A DNA stretch of 19,872 nt from an uncultured archaeon (GTDB lineage: Archaea > Asgardarchaeota > Lokiarchaeia > Sigyniarchaeales > SOKP01): contig CAYLZE010000096.1 in the NCBI GenBank assembly GCA_964388035.1, positions 1 to 19,872 of the forward strand, written 5' to 3'. The notes beneath the pieces are model-generated. The model had not been told where the DNA came from and ran no database searches. It worked only from the letters and a program-made list of their open reading frames with translations. Positions 10,432 to 19,070 of the stretch are shown here, piece by piece (positions within the stretch are counted from its first letter, which is position 1; every line of letters begins with the position of its first letter). A program made the position numbers and the translations under genes.

Positions 10432-11460
10432 TTAAGAGCTTGTTATTTTCTCAAATATTTCCTCTAATCTTGGAGTTTTACGCCGCAGACTAATGCATCG
10501 TTCTTCTTCGCAACCTCTTAAAATTGCAACTAATTCGTTAAGATGAATGGTAGGAATGTCCAGGTTATCATCACAAAATTGTTTTTTCATGTCCTCTCTA
10601 TATTCTGGTTTACTTAAGGTATACAAACAAGTCGGACAAGGCATTAATAGAAAATCGGCTCCCACATTTTCGGCACTTTTTAATTTTTTATAAGTGACAT
10701 TTAAAGCTTGTTCTTTGTGAAGCACTATCTGGGAAGCACCCCACCCGCAACAGCTATCTCTTTCCTGATAGTCCACGGGCACCCCTCCAAATAATTCTAC
10801 TAATTCTTCCAACTTATTTTTATCCTTGAAATACTCCTCACTCAAACCATTAGGAGTTTTTTTATCCCGTTCGAGGTTTAAATAATGACAACCATAATGG
10901 ACTGCTACTTTAAGTCCCTTCAAATCAAATTTAAAGGTCTTAATGATCTCATTTCTTAATAAATATATAAAATCCAAATCATGAACAATTTTTAATTTAG
11001 GATTTTCTAACAAATGATATTGACCAGGATACTCTTCTTGACCGATTTCTGCCTTTACATCATCAAGAATTCTTTGAGTTTTATTTTTTACTTCGGGAGT
11101 ATCTAAAAAGTCCCTCCCTCTTAAAAGGGAGTTATAGCACCCATTACAACTCACTAATAAGATGTCTGCTTGATGAGCGATTTCATTTAAATTACGTTCA
11201 TTTATAGCCGCAAATTGAGCTCTAGTTATTAAATTTCTCTGAAAAAAGGTACCAGAACAACAAGTCTGGCTGTCACAGGTTGAAAACGTTAAATCTAAAT
11301 CTTCCAATAAGTCTTCAATCCCATATCGTACCCCGGGAAAATATTTTTCCAAGCATGCTTTAAATAAACATAATCTTTTCCCTTTAAAGAATTCTAAGGG
11401 GTTTTCAGGATAATTTTTCTCTATTTCCTTTAAATCCAAAACTAATTCATTGCCATTCAT
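10432..11460 (-). CDS. hdrB: Heterodisulfide reductase subunit B-like protein (two CCG domains)
   Basis: FKAC...TCCSG...SCNGC and HYGCH...SCCGWG...PCPTC. Confidence 0.88.
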   Translation of the reverse strand: MNGNELVLDLKEIEKNYPENPLEFFKGKRLCLFKACLEKYFPGVRYGIEDLLEDLDLTFSTCDSQTCCSGTFFQRNLITRAQFAAINERNLNEIAHQADILLVSCNGCYNSLLRGRDFLDTPEVKNKTQRILDDVKAEIGQEEYPGQYHLLENPKLKIVHDLDFIYLLRNEIIKTFKFDLKGLKVAVHYGCHYLNLERDKKTPNGLSEEYFKDKNKLEELVELFGGVPVDYQERDSCCGWGASQIVLHKEQALNVTYKKLKSAENVGADFLLMPCPTCLYTLSKPEYREDMKKQFCDDNLDIPTIHLNELVAILRGCEEERCISLRRKTPRLEEIFEKITSS

Positions 11461-11494
11461 GATTTTAAAATTTGTTTAATTGGTGAACATGAGT

Positions 11495-12022
11495 TTATTT
11501 ATCATTTTTATTATTTCGTGATGATTTGGTGGTTTTTCGAGCATTAAAAACGTATTTAATGCGAGCAAAATCACAAATCTTGTCTAGTTCTTTTACTCTA
11601 CGTTCGGGAAGTTCTTTTCCGAGAGGTTCCTCTAATACAGTGCCATTTGTTAGAAAATGCTCTGCCATTTCTACGTACTTGTTTAAGTCATTGTATTTTG
11701 GTCCATACCCTTTTTTGAAAGACTCATTTCTCAAATTTATAATTAAGAGCGGGATGTCGATTCCTTCCTTCGGACAGACCCGCTTGCACTGTTCACAGAG
11801 GAAACAATTCCAAATATCAGAATCCTTTAAAACACTGCGATCCCCTTTCAAGATCTTACTGATTATTTTCCGAATGTTAAAATTAGAAAGCTTGGCAGCT
11901 GGACAATTTCCGACACACTTCCCACAAGATATGCATTGAATGATATTCTTATTTTCTTCCACGTCATTACACAGTTCCTTATAGAAATCCCAATTCCATT
12001 CAGAATCCGAATAATCTCCCAT
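11495..12022 (-). CDS. hdrC: Heterodisulfide reductase subunit C-like 2[4Fe-4S] protein
   Basis: CISCGKCVGNCP and IWNCFLCEQCKRVCP; directly upstream of hdrB. ATG 12022 is preferred over GTG 12034 because an SD-like GTGAT lies upstream of it. Confidence 0.88.
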   Translation of the reverse strand: MGDYSDSEWNWDFYKELCNDVEENKNIIQCISCGKCVGNCPAAKLSNFNIRKIISKILKGDRSVLKDSDIWNCFLCEQCKRVCPKEGIDIPLLIINLRNESFKKGYGPKYNDLNKYVEMAEHFLTNGTVLEEPLGKELPERRVKELDKICDFARIKYVFNARKTTKSSRNNKNDK

Positions 12023-12262
12023 ATTATAGATCACGTATTATTTTAAGGTAAGAACTTCAAGTAATGAAGGTTATTCATGTTAAAAAAATCCTTATTTTTT
12101 AGACCAAAAATAGAGGGAGAGAAGAGATTATTAAAAATAATTATTTCTCTAAAACGGCTATTTTACTAAAAAGCGCGATTTAAAATATTTTTTATCCCAC
12201 GGATAATAGTGAACGAGGATTTCTTTATCTTTGGAGGAGTGAAGCGAAAATGATGAAGCCGT

Positions 12263-12517
12263 TTACTTTTTTAGAGAACGTAAATGGATTTTGATCAATT
12301 GCCGTTGTAAATTACAATAATTTAATTTTTGCGTGTAGCTAAGATTTTGAGTCTTTGAAATGAGTTCTTGAGTTTTTTTCAAAAGATATAATCGCTTATC
12401 CCTGTCAAGATATTCAGTATTATCTAGAACTTCTTTTATTGTTTCTAAATCTTCAATGTCATGCAATCCCGCATGATCATGATAACTATTCTCAATTTCA
12501 TTTATTCTTGAAATCAT
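12263..12517 (-). CDS. Small helical hypothetical protein
   Basis: 84-aa ATG ORF in an otherwise non-coding gap, with a protein-like charged amphipathic composition. No family recognised. Confidence 0.55.
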   Translation of the reverse strand: MISRINEIENSYHDHAGLHDIEDLETIKEVLDNTEYLDRDKRLYLLKKTQELISKTQNLSYTQKLNYCNLQRQLIKIHLRSLKK

Positions 12518-12714
12518 ATCGAAACGTGCAAAGAAAAGATAATTTAAAGGAGTTTAAAAGTTAAATTTTATACTTTTATGATCTACCAACAAATTTCTTT
12601 GTTTTTAATAGGTATAATATCTACATATTATTTTTAGCAATACAAGCAGAATATCAGAAAATGAATTTAGAACCCATGAGCCCATTTTCTATCTTTTCCC
12701 TAATATTCTCTACT

Positions 12715-13416
12715 TTAAGAATATCCCCCACTTATAATGTTTGAGGATTCCACTATCTCGCCTTTTAGAGTAACCCTAGTAGCGTTTAATTTAAGATTTA
12801 TGGCAGTATTCATATCCTCCACCACTATGACTCGTCCAAATACAAATTCCATTACTTTTAAATAAATGGAATTAAATTCGATTAAATCAATCGCTCTGCC
12901 CAAAATTTTCCCGTTGGCTCTCGTTATCATGTCAAATGGAAAGACTTTCAGGTTATTCAAGGGCATGAAACATGCCCTGCCAAGTTGGTTCTTTTTCAGA
13001 AAATTCATGCAGCTTTTAGCCGTTTGAATATCTTGTACAACGAGATAATTCAATTTTTCGGCTCCCACTGCCTTTAATGCAACTTCATATTTGGATTCAC
13101 ACGTGTATAAATGAGAAATAGTCCCGTGGATCTTGCCCTGAATGTGGCTTTTTAATTTAAGTTCTGGGCATCTCTCCAAGGTTAAAATAGAATTAATCGG
13201 ATTACTATCATCTAAAGAAATTTCACTTTTTTCAATGAGATTTTCCAGGTTAATTTGGTTAGTTTTTAATTTTAAAGTTTTCTGTAACCTTATTAGTTCA
13301 TTTTCTAAATTCGTGCGTGTTATCATTGATAAGGGGATATTGGTATTAGAGGTATTCTTGAGAGGAGTTTGATTTAACATGAAATTATTTTTTGTATTTT
13401 CTTCCAGGTGAGACAT
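12715..13416 (-). CDS. Stand-alone SMC flexible-hinge domain protein
   Basis: IHGTISHL..CESKYEVAL...LNYLVVQDIQTAKSCMNFLKKNQLGRACFMPLN...AIDLIEF...FVFGRVIVVED...RVTLKGEIVESSNIISGG covers a complete SMC hinge. There are no Walker motifs or long coiled coils. Confidence 0.88.
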   Translation of the reverse strand: MSHLEENTKNNFMLNQTPLKNTSNTNIPLSMITRTNLENELIRLQKTLKLKTNQINLENLIEKSEISLDDSNPINSILTLERCPELKLKSHIQGKIHGTISHLYTCESKYEVALKAVGAEKLNYLVVQDIQTAKSCMNFLKKNQLGRACFMPLNNLKVFPFDMITRANGKILGRAIDLIEFNSIYLKVMEFVFGRVIVVEDMNTAINLKLNATRVTLKGEIVESSNIISGGYS

Positions 13417-13458
13417 GAAGATTCCCTTTTCTTATTGTTGTAAATAAAATGTGGAGAA

Positions 13459-13485
13459 ATATATAATAGAATTATCTTAAGATAA
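13459..13485 (-). promoter_or_regulatory. TATA box and adjacent perfect 14-bp palindrome upstream of the SMC-hinge gene
   Basis: TTATATAT on the minus strand (13466-13459) and TTATCTTAAGATAA at 13472-13485. Confidence 0.5.
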
Positions 13486-13639
13486 GATGCGTTAGGGTAT
13501 TTAAAGAAACGTACTATCACCTCCGTGATATTATCCCATCCAATTTTAATTTGTTCGAAGAAAAAGCATCTTTATTGAGAAAAAAGAAATAAACGTAGAA
13601 TGTAGCAACCTAATGGGGAATGATGTTCATGCGAGCTTC

Positions 13640-14602
13640 CTAAGAAAAAGGACTCTTAAAGTTGATGACACCTTCCGATAAAATCTTAATCATTTCCTTC
13701 CATGTTTCTTTAATATTCCACGAGTTATTTTTCTTAATTTTTTCTGAAATTTCATTAAATATTTGTTTAATTTTTAAACTTTCAAAATAATTTATTCTAG
13801 GGGCAATTAGGGATAATAGAAATTGTTGTTCTTTTGCTCTTTGCTTTACATTTTCTCTAGAATCGAAAAAAACGAAACAATTCTTACCAATTTTATCAAT
13901 ATTTAATAAGATGCCCTCGGGACTGGTTAATTTACTCTGTCCATAAAGAAAAACGGAAGTTTGAAATAATTGGAATCCAATTTCTTCTAAAAATTGCTTA
14001 TTATCTTCCGTTATAGGATAATAGGAATCCAATTTAGGACCAAACCGATCATCCCATAACATGGAAAAGAGATGAATGTCCTCTGCCATTTTCTTTGATA
14101 AAGATGGGCGTGCTTCTTCCTTCAATTCTTCGAAAGAAACTTCAAACCTTTTCTTCATTGCATTAATTCTTTTTGTTTTGGTAATTTTCCCTTTAATTAT
14201 TGCTAATAAATCAATATTTTTAAAGGGTTTCACGATATAATCATCAACACCCAATAATTTTCCTTCCCTAATTTCTCCTCCTGAAGATTTAGCTGTTAAG
14301 AAAACAAAAGGGATGTGATTCCAAAAAATATTATTTGAAACGATGTTATAGAATTCATAGCCATCCATCTCCGGCATCAAGATATCGCTGATAATTACAT
14401 CTGGTAAATTAGGGATTGTTTGTAGCAACTCTATTGCCCTTTTCCCGCTGTTTGCAGTGATAACATCAAAATTATTCGATTGCAAGAGCAGCTCAAGATT
14501 GAATAAAATGTCCTCGTTGTCGTCAATGATCATGATGAGATCTCGTCGAGATGACACATTGCCGTTTTCACTCTTTTTATCATCATTCTTATTTGATCCC
14601 AT
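13640..14602 (-). CDS. Response regulator: REC domain plus C-terminal non-HTH, longin/uDENN-like domain
   Basis: Intact REC (IIDDN, ISDILMPEMDG, FLTAK, YIVKPF). The C-terminal ~140 aa begin LFSMLWDDRFGPKLDSYYP. The longin call is inference. Confidence 0.85.
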   Translation of the reverse strand: MGSNKNDDKKSENGNVSSRRDLIMIIDDNEDILFNLELLLQSNNFDVITANSGKRAIELLQTIPNLPDVIISDILMPEMDGYEFYNIVSNNIFWNHIPFVFLTAKSSGGEIREGKLLGVDDYIVKPFKNIDLLAIIKGKITKTKRINAMKKRFEVSFEELKEEARPSLSKKMAEDIHLFSMLWDDRFGPKLDSYYPITEDNKQFLEEIGFQLFQTSVFLYGQSKLTSPEGILLNIDKIGKNCFVFFDSRENVKQRAKEQQFLLSLIAPRINYFESLKIKQIFNEISEKIKKNNSWNIKETWKEMIKILSEGVINFKSPFS

Positions 14603-14646
14603 AGAATTATCTCAATATTCAATCAATCATCATTATATTTAAGTAT

Positions 14647-17223
14647 TTATAATCTAGGTAAAAAGACATAAAATGTTGTACCTTTGCCATGGATACTTTC
14701 TACATGAATTTCGCCCTCATGAAGTTCAATCAATTCTTTAGCTATGGATAACCCTAACCCCGTGCCCGGAATCTCTTGTACTTCTTTGGATCTATAGAAT
14801 CTTTCAAAGATCAAGGGTAGTTCCGTGCTTGAGATCCCAATTCCTTCATCTTGAAATTTAAATAGAACGCCATGTTTATTTTTTGAGTTATATTTTCCTT
14901 CATAATCCTTGATACTTTCTATAGATACTTTATTACCTTTATTTGAATATTTAATGGCATTATCAATGATGATTCGAAAGATTTGGTCGATTCTCATGGG
15001 GTCTCCCCGTAAGATGATGTCATGATCGACCTTTAATTGGCAGATAATACCTTTTTTTTCGCAAAAAGGATGCATCAATGTAAAAATCTCTTGGAAAATA
15101 TCCAGCGGTCTATATTCTTTCATCACCAATTTCACCCTACCCTCATCCAAAATGAATATATTTATCAAATCATCCGCCAATTTATGCAATAGACCCACGT
15201 TGCGTACCATGCCATCCATCAACCGTACTTCTACTTCTGGAGTGAGATATTCTTTATGGTTCTGAAGATGTTCTAAAGAGAGAGATAAAACGGTAATAGG
15301 AGTTCTTAATTCATGGGAAAGGATAGTGATTAAATTCTTAAGATTCTGCTCCGCCTTGACGCGATCGGTAATATCCATTCCATAGATATTTACATAATTA
15401 GCGCTTTTGACCGGAGTGATAATTAAAGAATAATGATGCTCTTTCAATTTAATTTCAAATTTTCTTAATTGATTCTTTTCCACCACGTCATTTATAGGAT
15501 CTAACAATAAGATCGGAATAGGATCTCCAATTTTAATTTCAAATAAATTCTCTCCCACTTTATTACTATAAATAATTTGCATTTTATCCACGCGTAAAAC
15601 GGGATTGGGATCTTCTGACGGAAATTTTGATAAATTGCGAATCTTTTCCTCAGCTTCCACTCTATCCGTGATATCTGCGACGCAAGCAAAACCGCCCATG
15701 TAATCCCCGTTTTCATTCATTAAGGGAGCGGCTTCTAGACTCGTATATACATCTTGGCCATTCTTTTTTAAAAATTTGAAGTCATACTGTTCTTTTACTC
15801 CTTGCTCTCTTCTTTTAAGATGCATTTTACAGAGTTCCTGCTCATGTTCCTCCATGAAAAAAAACACTGACTTCCCAAGCATCTCCTCGGGTTCATATCC
15901 TAATATTTCTGCCAATCTCTTATTAACATAGGTGGTATCAGCATTCTTATCAATTGCCCAAATTCCTTCTTGTGCGTTTTCTACTAATACTTTATATCTT
16001 TCTTCCGATTTTTTTAAAGCATCTTCCATATTTTTCTGAACCGACATGTTTCGAAAAAAACTTTGTATTATTTTTCGATTTCCAATATCCATTAAAGAAG
16101 CCACGACTTGAATGGGTATGACTTTTCCTGATTTAGTAATGATCTGAGTTTCATTATTATATACTTCTCCCTCATTTAATGCATTTTTATAAGAAGATAT
16201 GCAATTGATATCTTTTGAGGTAGGATGCAAAGTACTCTGATGGGAACCAATTAGTTCTTTTTTTTTCCGTTCAAATAACTCTTCTGCGGCCTTGTTACAA
16301 TTTATTATCATTCCATCTAGAAAATCTACCCATATAATCGCATCGGCTGCATTTTCGAAAGTTAATCGGAATTTTTTTTCTGAATCCTCCAGCTTTCGTG
16401 CTTTATCAGCCAGAATTTCCTCATTTTCTTTAAGTTTTTTAAATAGCGTGCTCCAAGGAGATTGTAATCCTGTTTCTACTAATGCTTTATAAACAAAAAA
16501 GAAGGCAACCACTTTCACAAGGTGTCCGAGGACGTTAAAAACACCATATATATCACCATGGATTGTAAAGAAGAATTCAGACAAAATACTTATCGTCAAA
16601 GAATATAATAGATAGTTAAAAACTTTCTGATTGTACCCTTCTTTATAATGAATTAACATTAAAACGCTACCGCCAAACGCAACTATTATAATGTATTCAC
16701 TTATCAAGTAAAAAAGAGTTACTCCACTATTCTCAATATAGCAAACGGGAAAAAATCCCAACGTAATAGAAATAAGAAAAATAGTAGTAATAATGCTATA
16801 GATCGGTAGAAGATGTTTATATCCTATGGTCCTTGTAACCGTTGCCGTCGCAATTAATAATGTAAATGCTTGCATGTATCTAGCGACAATCCATAATTGT
16901 GCAGCTACATTAGCATTATCTCGCATATAAATATTCATTCCCGGATAAAAAATAAGACAAAGTAAATCGATTAGCCCGATGAATAGAAATCCTACCCCCA
17001 CTAATGAAAAAAAAGTAGTACTTGTAAATTTTCGGGAATTCCATCCAATTATAAAGAGACTTGAAGCAATAATAACGGTGTAGAATTCAACTAAAACATA
17101 AAATAATAGATAACTAATAAGAACAAGAATACTGGATATTGCACAGAAAGAGAGGATGATGATAAACTCTACATTATTTTCCAAATGTTGTAAGAATTCC
17201 CTATTTTTGAACATGACCAGCAC
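14647..17223 (-). CDS. Membrane sensor histidine kinase, MASE3-PAS-PAS-(PAS-like)-HisKA-HATPase
   Basis: About 8 TM N-terminus (GWNSR, YPGM, QLWIVARY, GHLVK), PAS starts FENAADAI and VENAQEGIW, H-box SHELRTP, DNAIKYS, DEGIGI, IFERFYR and GTGLGLSI. The true start may be ATG 17214. Confidence 0.93.
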   Translation of the reverse strand: MLVMFKNREFLQHLENNVEFIIILSFCAISSILVLISYLLFYVLVEFYTVIIASSLFIIGWNSRKFTSTTFFSLVGVGFLFIGLIDLLCLIFYPGMNIYMRDNANVAAQLWIVARYMQAFTLLIATATVTRTIGYKHLLPIYSIITTIFLISITLGFFPVCYIENSGVTLFYLISEYIIIVAFGGSVLMLIHYKEGYNQKVFNYLLYSLTISILSEFFFTIHGDIYGVFNVLGHLVKVVAFFFVYKALVETGLQSPWSTLFKKLKENEEILADKARKLEDSEKKFRLTFENAADAIIWVDFLDGMIINCNKAAEELFERKKKELIGSHQSTLHPTSKDINCISSYKNALNEGEVYNNETQIITKSGKVIPIQVVASLMDIGNRKIIQSFFRNMSVQKNMEDALKKSEERYKVLVENAQEGIWAIDKNADTTYVNKRLAEILGYEPEEMLGKSVFFFMEEHEQELCKMHLKRREQGVKEQYDFKFLKKNGQDVYTSLEAAPLMNENGDYMGGFACVADITDRVEAEEKIRNLSKFPSEDPNPVLRVDKMQIIYSNKVGENLFEIKIGDPIPILLLDPINDVVEKNQLRKFEIKLKEHHYSLIITPVKSANYVNIYGMDITDRVKAEQNLKNLITILSHELRTPITVLSLSLEHLQNHKEYLTPEVEVRLMDGMVRNVGLLHKLADDLINIFILDEGRVKLVMKEYRPLDIFQEIFTLMHPFCEKKGIICQLKVDHDIILRGDPMRIDQIFRIIIDNAIKYSNKGNKVSIESIKDYEGKYNSKNKHGVLFKFQDEGIGISSTELPLIFERFYRSKEVQEIPGTGLGLSIAKELIELHEGEIHVESIHGKGTTFYVFLPRL

Positions 17224-17457
17224 GAGTGAACCTATATTCTAAGATATATATGACGTATCAAATTAATTATTCGATTTTATAATTTTTAAATCCATTATTT
17301 TCCATTAATTAATGCTTTTTCTAGTTTTTTGAATGAGAATAAAAAATGCTTCTTTCCCCTTTTTTTCCTATTTTATGGCTCTTTCCTGAAACCTTTTTTA
17401 AAGCTAATCTGAAAAAACAAAAATGATTCATTATTTCGACAGTTTAGCAGAGCACTG

Positions 17458-17988
17458 TCAGCCATGAAGATCGGAGCTCTTAAATACCGTAAAAATGGTC
17501 GACTTTTTGATGGTATAATCAAGATTGTTTGATATTAAGTACCTTATTTTATTGAGTAATTCCCTTACCTTCGGTTTGATATTTTCTATCTCGAGTTCTA
17601 AATTGGGATCATATTTATGCAAAAAAATTACTAATTTAGGTTTTTCATCTCTTGCTTCGAGAATTTTTATGATTTCTTCAAGGTAATCTAAGGCAAGATT
17701 GTATCTCTCCGTATCTTGAATATCAATAAGGTAGAGAATTTTACCAACTCCCAAGAAATACTTTTCGGAATTTTTAATAACATCGTTTCTATAAACCTCT
17801 TGGCCTCCAAAATCCAGGATCATGTAGGGATTTCCTTGAACTGTTATTGTTTTCATTTGCTGCCCTATCGTGGGAATTAATTGATCGTGTAACGATAACA
17901 GATTCTTTCCAAGCAAGCTAAAAACTATAGAGGTTTTTCCGCTATTATCCAACCCCAGAACCAGAATTCTATTGTTATTCTCTGCCAT
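17458..17988 (-). CDS. Small Ras-superfamily GTPase, Arf/Rag-like (Asgard type)
   Basis: G1 GLDNSGKT, G2 PTIG, G3 DFGGQ, G4 HKYD and G5-like STIF. Confidence 0.92.
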   Translation of the reverse strand: MAENNNRILVLGLDNSGKTSIVFSLLGKNLLSLHDQLIPTIGQQMKTITVQGNPYMILDFGGQEVYRNDVIKNSEKYFLGVGKILYLIDIQDTERYNLALDYLEEIIKILEARDEKPKLVIFLHKYDPNLELEIENIKPKVRELLNKIRYLISNNLDYTIKKSTIFTVFKSSDLHG

Positions 17989-18024
17989 TTCAAATCAAAA
18001 CTCTTGGATTTTCATATATAACTA

Positions 18025-18360
18025 TTATAATATAATATCTTCAAGCCCTCTCTTACTTGAATCCCAGAGTTGCTTTTTCTCAATATCGTCAATAAATGTT
18101 TTTACTATAGTTAATAGACGGAAAATTTCACTGTTCTTGATAAAATAAAAATTTACATTATCTTTCCTGTTAGAATCTACAAGATTGTTATCCCTTAACA
18201 CTTTAAGATGTTGAGAGATGGTTGATTGAGATTTGTCCAATTTTTCTTGAATTTCAGCCGACGTCTTTTCGTTCTCTTTTAATTCTTCTAAAATGTCTAA
18301 TCGAGTGTTGTCTGCCAAGATGTTTAAGAATGCAATCAATTTATCATTTTGAGAGCTCAT
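18025..18360 (-). CDS. ArsR/SmtB-family winged-helix regulator
   Basis: LADNTRLDILEEL...SQSTISQHLKVLRDNNLV. No cysteines; its stop lies 36 bp upstream of the GTPase start. Confidence 0.92.
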   Translation of the reverse strand: MSSQNDKLIAFLNILADNTRLDILEELKENEKTSAEIQEKLDKSQSTISQHLKVLRDNNLVDSNRKDNVNFYFIKNSEIFRLLTIVKTFIDDIEKKQLWDSSKRGLEDIIL

Positions 18361-18566: not shown

Positions 18567-19070
18567 ATGGGAATGGAAGTATTAAATATTGATGATATTG
18601 ATAAGAAAATTATCCAGATTGTACAAAAGCATCCTAACTTGACACACACTGAAATTGCAAGTAGGGTGAATCGTTCTCAACCCACAGTAGGAATGAGAAT
18701 AAAGAAGCTTGAGGAAAGCGGAGTTTTGAAGTTCCAAGCGGGAATAAATATCAAATCCACGGACATGGTATTCGCACGGGTTGAGATAGAAACCAACCAT
18801 CCCGATAGAATTTTAAAGATAATTGAAGGATGCCCTTTCATGCTCAATGCCTTTAAATTGAACGGAACCATGAATGTTAGTGTAATTTTAGCAAGTTTTA
18901 GTCTTGAAAATTTAGATAAGATCGTGAATTTTCACTTTAGGAACAATCCGGATGTTATTACGTTAAAATTGGATATTATCGTAAACGTTTTAAGGGATTT
19001 CGTGTTACCATTCGACTTTCAATTTGATAAATGTCAGTGCGGGATGGCAAAGTGTTGCCTTGAAGAATAA
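18567..19070 (+). CDS. Lrp/AsnC-family transcriptional regulator with a Cys-rich tail
   Basis: IDDIDKKII...EIASRVNRSQPTVGMRIKKLEESGVL, a RAM-like C-domain and the tail KCQCGMAKCC. Confidence 0.92.
   Translation: MGMEVLNIDDIDKKIIQIVQKHPNLTHTEIASRVNRSQPTVGMRIKKLEESGVLKFQAGINIKSTDMVFARVEIETNHPDRILKIIEGCPFMLNAFKLNGTMNVSVILASFSLENLDKIVNFHFRNNPDVITLKLDIIVNVLRDFVLPFDFQFDKCQCGMAKCCLEE

What the first reader, a model, noticed from the sequence alone, without database searches (positions are those of the whole stretch)
12715..13416. Stand-alone SMC hinge protein with no ATPase heads or arms
Seen: a 233-aa ORF with ~90 aa of Asn-rich sequence and a short coiled segment, then a whole SMC hinge that stops two residues after the terminal GG. 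It has its own ATG and TATA, and no SMC head or arm remnants are recognisable in the flanks. The dimerisation motif GX6GX3GG reads G-EIVESS-N-IIS-GG, a Gly-to-Asn change. Established: the hinge mediates SMC dimerisation and DNA binding, and hinges outside canonical SMCs are best known from eukaryotic chromatin factors (plant DMS3, SMCHD1). Inference: a dominant-negative or modulating partner of the chromosomal SMC, or an independent DNA-binding dimer, in an Asgard-like archaeon.
Basis: partly seen in the sequence, partly recalled or inferred. Interest (0 to 1): 0.8.

Follow-up and report, generated by a model that had tools for sequence, protein, structure and literature searches.

The report
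Conserved stand-alone SMC hinge protein
A small gene in an Asgard (Promethearchaeota) archaeon encodes only the dimerising "hinge" of a chromosome-organising SMC protein; it is what is left, in place, of a full-length smc gene, and selection has kept it in a handful of related species, so the hinge probably has a job of its own.

Summary
ORF 12715-13416(-) encodes 233 aa with a full SMC hinge (Pfam 3.8e-28; the AF2 model matches solved hinges) and stops 2 residues after the terminal GG. No head or arm relics lie in the flanks.

The interpretation needs correcting in three places:
- **Origin.** The gene sits at the ancestral locus of a hinge-bearing ~1200-aa SMC paralogue that relatives still have. 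It is an in-place truncation, and its hinge nests inside that paralogue's clade.
- **Selection.** It is not decaying. Five short orthologues exist (233-245 aa, plus a 328-aa intermediate) and form one clade. dN/dS is 0.17 in the closest pair, like neighbouring genes.
- **The "Gly-to-Asn" change.** It is not special. Every full-length SMC of this order has N or H there.

This genome has no cognate SMC to poison. Its main SMC (1478 aa, found order-wide, ScpAB-linked) has a helical hairpin instead of a hinge. Its other SMC has a hinge only 27% identical. The ScpB linked to the lost paralogue was not found either.

Best reading: an autonomous homodimeric hinge ring, modelled with the canonical interface. 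DNA binding is uncertain, because the basic post-GG segment is missing.

The scan's first stage noted an orthologue in another genome. This is a new variant of a known kind, of moderate to high interest.

The parts
12715..13416 (-). Complete ORF of the stand-alone hinge protein (233 aa plus TAA stop)
   Evidence: Orthologues.
12718..13206 (-). Residues 71-233: end of the ascending arm plus the alpha/beta SMC hinge domain, which is the constrained part
   Evidence: AF2 pLDDT >90 over most of it. Foldseek matches solved SMC hinges, 1gxj TM 0.84. 61% identity to G001, with pN 0.24 against pS 0.76.
12724..12762 (-). Residues 219-231: C-terminal dimerisation strand G-x6-N-x3-GG
   Evidence: G219, S225, G230 and G231 are invariant and N226 nearly so across short and full-length forms. 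In the homodimer model it pairs with residues 143-152 of the other copy.
12970..12990 (-). Residues 143-149 (motif Q-L-G-R-A-C-F, the usual GRASF strand): start of the 143-152 segment that forms the other half of the dimer interface
   Evidence: R147 and F150 invariant. Interface contacts.
13228..13332 (-). Residues 29-63: lone N-terminal helix, homologous to the ascending coiled-coil strand just before the hinge. Its intramolecular partner strand is missing.
   Evidence: Aligns to the arm of full-length SMCs. Helix modelled with pLDDT 46-67. The motif R-L-Q/E-K-T-L...L-E-N is shared by the short forms.
13333..13416 (-). Residues 1-28: poorly conserved, modelled as disordered
   Evidence: pLDDT <50 for residues 1-32. 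Residues 1-70 are 27% identical to G001, with pN 0.48 against pS 0.61.
13417..13639 (-). Intergenic region upstream of the ORF, presumed to hold its promoter (inferred only)
   Evidence: A gap of 223 nt to the response-regulator gene. The TATA-like word at 13498-13505 is no more than chance gives. Not conserved with G001.
18567..19070 (+). Lrp/AsnC-type regulator gene: the synteny anchor that marks the ancestral smc locus
   Evidence: Its orthologue lies divergently and directly upstream of the full-length smc in G010, followed there by the gene block that in G001 lies beyond this Lrp gene (the window ends before it).

Best explanation
The gene is the in-place remnant of the hinge-bearing ~1200-aa SMC paralogue of Lokiarchaeia-type Asgard archaea. 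In the ancestor of a small clade the heads and most of both arms were lost. What remained was first a 'hinge plus short coiled-coil stubs' protein, of which the 328-aa form still exists. In the window's genus it then became a protein that ends 1-5 residues after the terminal GG. The remnant has since been kept by purifying selection. It most likely works as an autonomous homodimer: two copies join through the two canonical hinge beta-sheet interfaces (strand 224-233 against 143-152) into the usual doughnut. It does not work as a partner of a cognate SMC, because the heads, the arms and the ScpB linked to that paralogue were not found in this genome. The ring is basic (pI about 9) and keeps the invariant Lys141, so weak nucleic-acid binding is plausible. 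The unpaired N-terminal helix could dock onto another coiled-coil protein. Status of each step: origin, selection and fold are shown here; dimerisation is modelled and follows from homology; DNA binding and the cellular role are inferred.
For: Domain and fold. In-place origin: gene order around the short gene is collinear in G000, G001 and three further assemblies. In G010, and apart from the Lrp gene also in G005, the genes that in G001 lie beyond its Lrp gene sit directly upstream of the full-length smc (Lrp-type gene, then genes of 215, 172, 319, 267 and 263 aa). In the 328-aa form's locus a 579-aa gene sits downstream in the position and orientation of the 575-580-aa gene beside smc-scpB in G005 and G006 (homology of these two genes was not tested). 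Phylogeny: the five short forms make one clade (UFBoot 90, SH-aLRT 98) nested in the family's full-length SMC hinge clade (96/99). Selection: in the closest pair dS is 0.99, dN 0.17 and omega 0.17, against omega 0.17 and 0.12 for two neighbouring genes. For G000-G001 the hinge part has pN 0.24 against pS 0.76. In a neutral simulation only 3e-4 of replicates stay open at the per-lineage divergence. Two variants in one low-depth contig are both synonymous third positions (weak). No cognate complex: the genome has only two hinge matches, this ORF and the C80 SMC. The best SMC matches TIGR02169 at 1-495 and 738-1165 only, and its centre is modelled as one helical hairpin without strands. The weak ScpB type that lies next to the hinge-bearing smc in G005 and G006 is not found in G000, G001 or G003. 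Dimer: homodimer model score 0.82, best of 3 controls 0.00. That mark was reached by 20 of 30 proteins solved as pairs of one chain and by 1 of 23 solved as single chains, and these counts hold only roughly because my own alignment was used. The runs agree in 100% of contacts and the partner pLDDT is at least 87. Hinge dimers have been solved, so the pass shows likeness rather than binding. Interface residues G219, S225, G230, G231, R147, F150, P152 and L153 are invariant. Charge: hinge part +4 to +6 with pI about 9, like most full-length relatives.
Against: No expression data exist. [quoted passage not shown] In B. subtilis SMC the basic patch comprises K565 and K666-K668 (PMC2879519, read). 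The K/R-rich segment that follows GG in the full-length relatives is missing from the 233-245-aa proteins, so DNA binding may be weak or lost. A glycine that is invariant in all full-length hinges (position 104) is Y, F or I in all the short forms, and the stem branch to the short clade is long (0.86), so the function may have changed. The family is confined to a few closely related lineages: only 2 of 154 species genomes of the order carry it.
Confidence: 0.6

Rival explanations
1. A dimeric adaptor that does not bind DNA. The hinge ring serves only as a dimerisation module, and the exposed N-terminal helix (which has lost its intramolecular partner strand) recruits some other coiled-coil or signalling protein. 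This could be a product of the conserved neighbouring cluster of ArsR-type regulator, Arf-like GTPase, histidine kinase and response regulator.
For: The post-GG basic segment, implicated in hinge DNA binding (PMC2879519), is deleted. The N-helix motif is conserved among the short forms. The response-regulator gene lies directly upstream in G000, G001, P0003 and P0004, and in the P0005 locus one opposite-strand gene intervenes.
Against: The neighbourhood conservation is no more than expected among close relatives, since more distant flanking genes are collinear too. The gaps to the upstream gene are 166-262 nt, which does not indicate a tight operon. No partner has been identified. The net basic charge is retained.
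Confidence: 0.2
2. A hinge supplied in trans to the hingeless long SMC. The ring docks onto the conserved helical apex of the 1478-aa SMC and restores a hinge-type DNA-binding or gate function.
For: The genome's main SMC lacks a hinge. Its apex is the best-conserved stretch of the central segment aligned (residues 600-900). The two proteins co-occur in G000 and G001.
Against: The long SMC is found in all 41 relatives searched, most of which have no hinge sequence at all. This includes 0 of 54 and 0 of 42 genomes in two genera, so it does not need a hinge. The two genes are not linked. No interaction test was run.
Confidence: 0.08
3. A modulator or dominant-negative partner of the other hinge-bearing SMC (C80, 1168 aa, the SMC5/6-like paralogue). 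It would form a mixed hinge dimer and cap that SMC.
For: C80 is the only other Pfam hinge match in the genome.
Against: The two hinges share only 27% identity over 135 residues (E 0.007), and the alignment stops before the C-terminal dimerisation strand. The short protein derives from a different, homodimeric paralogue. The C80-type SMC is also present in relatives without the short gene.
Confidence: 0.07
4. A non-functional gene fragment that happens still to be open.
For: It is a truncation product. The N-terminal 70 residues are barely constrained (pN 0.48 against pS 0.61). Its distribution is narrow.
Against: Five intact orthologues exist, with omega 0.17. The hinge part is 61% identical at saturated synonymous divergence. 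Under neutrality the frame survives in about 3e-4 of replicates per lineage. The Pfam score of 98.6 bits shows an undegraded domain.
Confidence: 0.04

Closest known systems
Hinge of the hinge-bearing ~1200-aa SMC paralogue of the same archaeal order (full-length genes in G005, G006, G009, G010 and others)
   Same: Direct homologue and evolutionary source. Identity is 35-46% over the hinge, the G-x6-N-x3-GG variant is the same, and so are the genomic locus and the basic charge.
   Different: There is no Walker A/B head, no signature motif and no long arms. The descending strand is absent and the post-GG basic segment is deleted. The invariant Gly104 is replaced. The adjacent scpB is gone.
Laboratory hinge constructs of prokaryotic SMCs (T. 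maritima 1GXJ/1GXL, P. furiosus 3NWC/4RSJ, G. stearothermophilus 5H69)
   Same: Same fold (Foldseek E 3e-15 to 1e-12; TM 0.84 to 1gxj) and the same predicted doughnut homodimer. The natural 233-aa protein resembles a construct with only an N-terminal coiled-coil stub, and the 328-aa form resembles 'hinge with short coiled coil'.
   Different: Those are artificial fragments of full-length proteins. This one is a natural gene kept by selection.
Plant DMS3 (DDR complex) and animal SMCHD1: eukaryotic proteins that use an SMC hinge without SMC ATPase heads
   Same: The architectural idea is the same: a hinge used outside a canonical SMC and dimerising through the hinge. DMS3 chains are retrieved by fold (6oit, E 1e-7).
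   Different: The origin is independent and recent. This protein is far closer to true SMC hinges than to DMS3 (E 3e-15 against 1e-7). It has no GHKL ATPase as in SMCHD1 (Pfam finds only the hinge) and no long coiled coil as in DMS3. No partner complex is known.

Membership tests
SMC hinge domain (Pfam PF06470) | Profile match above the curated cut-off | tested here: met
   98.6 bits against 22.5, E 3.8e-28, profile positions 3-115 of 116.
SMC hinge domain (Pfam PF06470) | Two-lobed alpha/beta hinge fold | tested here: met
   AF2 model with pLDDT >90 over most of residues 71-233. The top 44 Foldseek PDB matches are all SMC hinges or SMC chains, and 1gxj has TM 0.84 and rmsd 2.8 A.
SMC hinge domain (Pfam PF06470) | C-terminal glycine motif G-x6-G-x3-GG | tested here: inconclusive
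   It reads G-x6-N-x3-GG. The second Gly is N or H in every full-length SMC of the order as well, so the lineage's own functional variant is met but the textbook motif is not.
SMC hinge domain (Pfam PF06470) | Doughnut-shaped dimer through two beta-sheet interfaces | tested here: met
   Prediction only: score 0.82, best of 3 controls 0.00. The mark was reached by 20 of 30 solved one-chain pairs and by 1 of 23 single chains, and these counts are rough because my own alignment was used. Contacts agree 100% and pLDDT is at least 87. Strand 224-233 lies against 143-152. Like complexes are solved, so the result shows likeness, not binding.
Canonical SMC protein (NCBIfam TIGR02169) | N-terminal Walker A head and C-terminal signature/Walker B head | tested here: not met
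   Only model positions 481-660 are matched, at 117 bits against a cut-off of 729. No head sequence is found in the window.
Canonical SMC protein (NCBIfam TIGR02169) | Long antiparallel intramolecular coiled-coil arm | tested here: not met
   About 35 residues of the ascending strand remain and the descending strand is absent.
Headless hinge proteins of eukaryotes (DMS3, SMCHD1) | Specific relationship to DMS3 or SMCHD1 rather than to SMC proper; a GHKL ATPase for SMCHD1 | tested here: not met
   It nests inside archaeal full-length SMC hinges. DMS3 is a much weaker fold match. There is no GHKL domain. The two are analogous, not orthologous.
Pseudogene or decaying fragment | No intact orthologues, omega near 1, disrupted frame | tested here: not met
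   Five intact orthologues. Omega 0.17. Neutral simulation gives 3e-4.

The most novel reading that the evidence does not exclude
The SMC hinge has a function that does not need heads or arms, and that function is why it alone survived the loss of its SMC. In the most novel version, the free hinge ring works in trans with the order's hingeless, ScpAB-linked long SMC (or with another coiled-coil partner, through its orphaned N-terminal helix). That would be a natural 'split SMC', with hinge and motor as separate polypeptides.
Probability: 0.08. Interest if true: 0.85.

Novelty: new variant of a known kind. Interest (0 to 1): 0.6.

Why it matters
SMC hinges are usually treated as the dimerisation end of a motor protein. 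Whether they do more, such as binding DNA, acting as a gate or signalling to the heads, is a long-running question. Here nature has removed everything but the hinge and then kept it under purifying selection. This happened in a lineage whose main SMC manages without any hinge. That gives a clean natural test object for hinge-autonomous function. It also documents, step by step (1200 aa, then 328 aa, then about 235 aa), how a headless hinge protein can arise, in parallel with eukaryotic DMS3 and SMCHD1 and within the archaeal group closest to eukaryotes. The family is small, and its function is not shown.

Tried and rejected
- **RNA evidence.** No RNA holder was listed for window 12200-14700, so expression could not be examined.
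- **Near-length homologue searches.** Searches with the single protein and with the alignment returned only the window's protein and one orthologue. The exhaustive representative search was needed to find the 235-aa and 328-aa forms.
- **Gene fission.** I tested whether the conserved 84-aa ORF downstream (12263-12517) is the split-off descending coiled-coil strand. It has no similarity to SMC arms or to the tail of the 328-aa form (best E 0.56). It has weak paralogues all over the family, including in genomes without any hinge. Rejected.
- **Head or arm relics in the flanks.** None found. A K/R-rich in-frame stretch after the stop in the 235-aa orthologue's locus is too short to interpret.
- **Promoter.** The TATA-like word is not above chance, the upstream regions of G000 and G001 do not align meaningfully, and the sigma-70-type scan is not applicable to archaea.
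- **Other short hinge hits in the global search.** P0007 (410 aa) and P0063 (377 aa) lie on contigs of 1.3-1.6 kb and cannot be judged. P0097 is not on record. P0148 is a different case and is listed under things noticed.
- **Interaction models.** Heterodimer models with the C80 hinge or with the apex of the long SMC were not run, because the single complex job went to the homodimer.
- **Literature.** Searches found no paper on a prokaryotic stand-alone hinge. The library is incomplete, so this is not proof of absence.

Full report
**1. What is there.**
The minus-strand ORF at 12715-13416 starts with ATG and encodes 233 residues. Pfam SMC_hinge matches residues 95-208 at E 3.8e-28 (98.6 bits, cut-off 22.5). 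The archaeal SMC model TIGR02169 aligns residues 56-232 to positions 481-660 of 1165, which is the last part of the ascending arm plus the hinge and nothing else. An AlphaFold2 model built on 16 homologues is confident over most of residues 71-233 (pLDDT >90). It shows a low-confidence helix at 29-63 and a disordered residues 1-32. Foldseek against the PDB returns SMC hinges first: G. stearothermophilus 5h69 at E 3e-15, T. maritima 1gxj at TM 0.84, and P. furiosus 3nwc. Plant DMS3 comes much lower, at E 1e-7. A sequence search of the PDB agrees. The protein ends two residues after the terminal GG.

**2. The rest of the genome changes the question.**
The window is contig C96 of a 5.47-Mb, 211-contig genome that is 96.7% complete. 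Pfam SMC_hinge hits only two places in it: this ORF, and weakly (34 bits) an 1168-aa SMC on C80. The best match to TIGR02169 is a 1478-aa protein on C27. Its heads match model positions 1-495 and 738-1165, but the hinge positions are not matched. Its sequence shows Walker A, signature and Walker B motifs. Pfam finds no hinge even at E<=1. An AF2 model of residues 600-900, built on 15 orthologues, is one long helical hairpin (helices 2-138 and 148-300 of the fragment, joined by a nine-residue loop) with no beta-strand. No other SMC heads exist in the genome apart from a Rad50-like 910-aa frame and coiled-coil noise. There is thus no full-length SMC with a hinge of the window's type.

**3. Where the short gene came from.**
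Across 40 relatives, the long hingeless SMC is present in every genome. In several genomes a weak ScpA-type kleisin gene lies beside it, and in G001, G003, G005 and G006 a strong ScpB gene lies within about 4 kb of it.

A second, hinge-bearing SMC of about 1200 aa is patchy. It was found in four other genera of the family (g5, g6, g9, g10) and in two of the other three families of the order. No hinge sequence at all was found in the other eight genera, including 0 of 54 and 0 of 42 genomes in two large genera. Where present in G005, G006 and G009, that gene is followed by a short ORF that is a weaker-scoring ScpB in G005 and G006.

In the window's genus the best match to the window protein is again a short frame (G001, 245 aa). 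Everywhere else it lies inside the 1200-aa protein.

Gene order is collinear between G000 and G001 around the short gene. The block that lies directly upstream of the full-length smc in G010 (and, apart from the Lrp gene, in G005) is a divergent Lrp-type gene followed by genes of 215, 172, 319, 267 and 263 aa. In G001 the same block lies just beyond the short gene, in the same relative orientation. It is separated from the short gene only by an inserted cluster of ArsR-type regulator, Arf-like GTPase, (histidine kinase) and response regulator.

tblastn finds no head or arm remnants in the window. A maximum-likelihood tree of the hinge region puts the short forms inside the family's clade of full-length hinges (97/99 and 96/99). 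The gene is therefore an in-place truncation of that paralogue.

**4. More orthologues, and an intermediate.**
The exhaustive search of 1.84 billion representatives added two forms:
- A 235-aa orthologue (58% identity), which lies in the same gene order and ends GGV*.
- A 328-aa protein (38% identity), found in two NCBI assemblies and one Logan assembly, on contigs up to 484 kb. It has the same upstream cluster, and its downstream neighbour is a 579-aa gene on the opposite strand, in the place and orientation of the 575-580-aa gene beside smc-scpB in G005 and G006; homology of the two genes was not tested. It keeps about 50 residues of descending coil after GG.

A further 245-aa orthologue comes from an NCBI assembly labelled Promethearchaeota. 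The five short forms make one clade (90/98), with the 328-aa form on a long basal branch. The stops in the four shortest forms lie 2, 5, 5 and 1 residues after GG. The simplest history is 1200 aa, then about 330 aa, then about 235-245 aa. Only two of the 154 species genomes of the order held here carry a short form.

**5. Selection.**
Between G000 and G001 synonymous sites are saturated in all genes (pS 0.72-0.89). The short gene has pN 0.31, which is at the high end of its neighbours (0.10-0.36) but far below pS. The hinge part (residues 71-233) is 61% identical, with pN 0.24 against pS 0.76. The first 70 residues are almost unconstrained (27% identity, pN 0.48 against pS 0.61).

The closest pair (G001 against the NCBI orthologue) is not saturated. 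It gives dS 0.99, dN 0.17 and omega 0.17, compared with omega 0.17 and 0.12 for the adjacent response-regulator and GTPase genes. In a neutral simulation at the observed per-lineage divergence, the frame stays open in about 3e-4 of replicates.

Contigs from salt-marsh metagenomes are identical to the window over 12225-13385 and 12765-13453. One low-depth contig carries two differences, both synonymous third positions, at Gly219 and Arg214. That last point is weak evidence.

**6. The Gly-to-Asn point.**
All 14 full-length SMCs aligned from this order have N (one has H) at that position of G-x6-G-x3-GG. It is a lineage trait of working SMCs, not a lesion of the short protein. What is specific to the short clade is the replacement of a Gly that is invariant in full-length hinges (position 104, now Y, F or I). 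There are also several conservative changes: A73P, I137L/M, I151L/M, D220E and M228I.

**7. How it probably works.**
*Dimerisation.* The residues of both interface strands are invariant. A controlled homodimer prediction of residues 68-233 scores 0.82 against 0.00 for the best of three controls. The mark was reached by 20 of 30 proteins solved as one-chain pairs and by 1 of 23 solved as single chains, and these counts are only rough because my own alignment was used. The runs agree in 100% of contacts and the partner pLDDT is at least 87. Strand 224-233 lies against 143-152 of the other copy, which is the classical doughnut. Hinge dimers have been solved, so this shows likeness to them, not binding.

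*Partner SMC.* A cognate one was not found (section 2). The only other hinge in the genome is 27% identical over 135 residues, and the alignment stops before the dimerisation strand. The ScpB type that accompanies the hinge-bearing SMC in G005 and G006 is not found in G000, G001 or G003, which have only the ScpB type that is linked to the long SMC in G001 and G003. A dominant-negative role is therefore unlikely.

*DNA binding.* The hinge part keeps a net charge of +4 to +6 (pI about 9), like most full-length relatives, and the invariant Lys141 in the L-K-K-N-x-L-G-R segment. I infer, without testing it, that Lys141 corresponds to B. subtilis K565. Against this, Griese et al. [quoted passage not shown] The K/R-rich segment that follows GG in the full-length relatives is simply missing from the 233-245-aa proteins. 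I therefore rate dimerisation as likely (about 0.8) and DNA binding as open (about 0.4). The N-terminal helix has lost its intramolecular partner strand and may be a docking site, which is the basis of the adaptor rival.

**8. Comparison with what is known.**
By descent it is an archaeal SMC hinge. By architecture it is not an SMC protein, because it has no heads and no arm. It is analogous to DMS3 and SMCHD1, which use a hinge outside a canonical SMC, but it arose independently and recently. Four literature searches found no description of a prokaryotic stand-alone hinge, and the library is incomplete. Published surveys of archaeal SMCs describe canonical and SMC5/6-related paralogues in Asgard archaea. 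The passages retrieved by my term searches of the two surveys mention neither a headless hinge nor a hingeless SMC. I searched for terms and did not read the papers in full. First-stage notes of this scan had flagged the hingeless SMC, the C80 operon and an scpAB pair in this genome, and a stand-alone hinge in another genome. I tested the first of these directly.

**9. Verdict.**
This is a real, selected, headless hinge protein, produced by in-place reduction of a lost SMC paralogue. It is confined to a small Asgard clade, and its cellular role is unknown. I classify it as a new variant of a known kind, with interest 0.6.

Noticed in passing
G000 contig C27:92-4528 (-), locus L011; not in the window: The genome's best SMC (1478 aa) has canonical heads but no hinge. 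Its centre is modelled as a single helical hairpin, and it is the best-conserved part of the central segment aligned (residues 600-900). Orthologues of about 1490 aa occur in all 41 genomes of the order that were searched, and ScpA-like or ScpB genes lie beside them in the genomes checked. This may be a more important finding than the hinge ORF itself.
   Followed up: partly
relatives G002-G153: The hinge-bearing ~1200-aa SMC paralogue has been lost completely in most genera of the family, with no hinge sequence in 0/54 and 0/42 genomes of two genera. These archaea appear to rely on the hingeless SMC plus an SMC5/6-like one.
   Followed up: partly
window 12263-12517 (-): An 84-aa helical ORF directly downstream of the hinge gene is conserved in three hinge-only loci (C-terminal motif C-N-x-Q-R-Q-L-I-K). 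It has weak paralogues of about 90-110 aa scattered through the family. There is no Pfam match and no SMC similarity. A 3-nt in-frame insertion variant (AAA after 12424) appears in a metagenome contig in each of two runs.
   Followed up: partly
window 13640-18360 (-): A cluster lies between the Lrp-type gene and the hinge gene in the G000, P0004 and P0005 loci; G001 and P0003 lack the kinase. It comprises an ArsR-type regulator, an Arf-like small GTPase, an 858-aa MASE3/PAS histidine kinase, and a response regulator with an unassigned C-terminal domain of about 180 aa. It occupies the place of the lost 5' half of smc.
   Followed up: no
L057:4001-5669 and L058:362-2030 (unrelated metagenome contigs): A 212-aa hinge ORF is followed after 44 nt by a 328-aa SMC_N/AAA_15 ORF. 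Both sit in an island with integrase, WYL, PDDEXK, Prim-Pol and recombinase genes. This is either a disrupted smc or a split mini-SMC module of a mobile element.
   Followed up: no
window 10432-12034 (-): Two cysteine-rich ORFs (342 and 179 aa, the latter with paired CxxCxxCxxxCP motifs) that I provisionally labelled HdrB/HdrC-like from the sequence alone, with no family search, lie downstream. They are conserved at 75-79% identity with G001.
   Followed up: no
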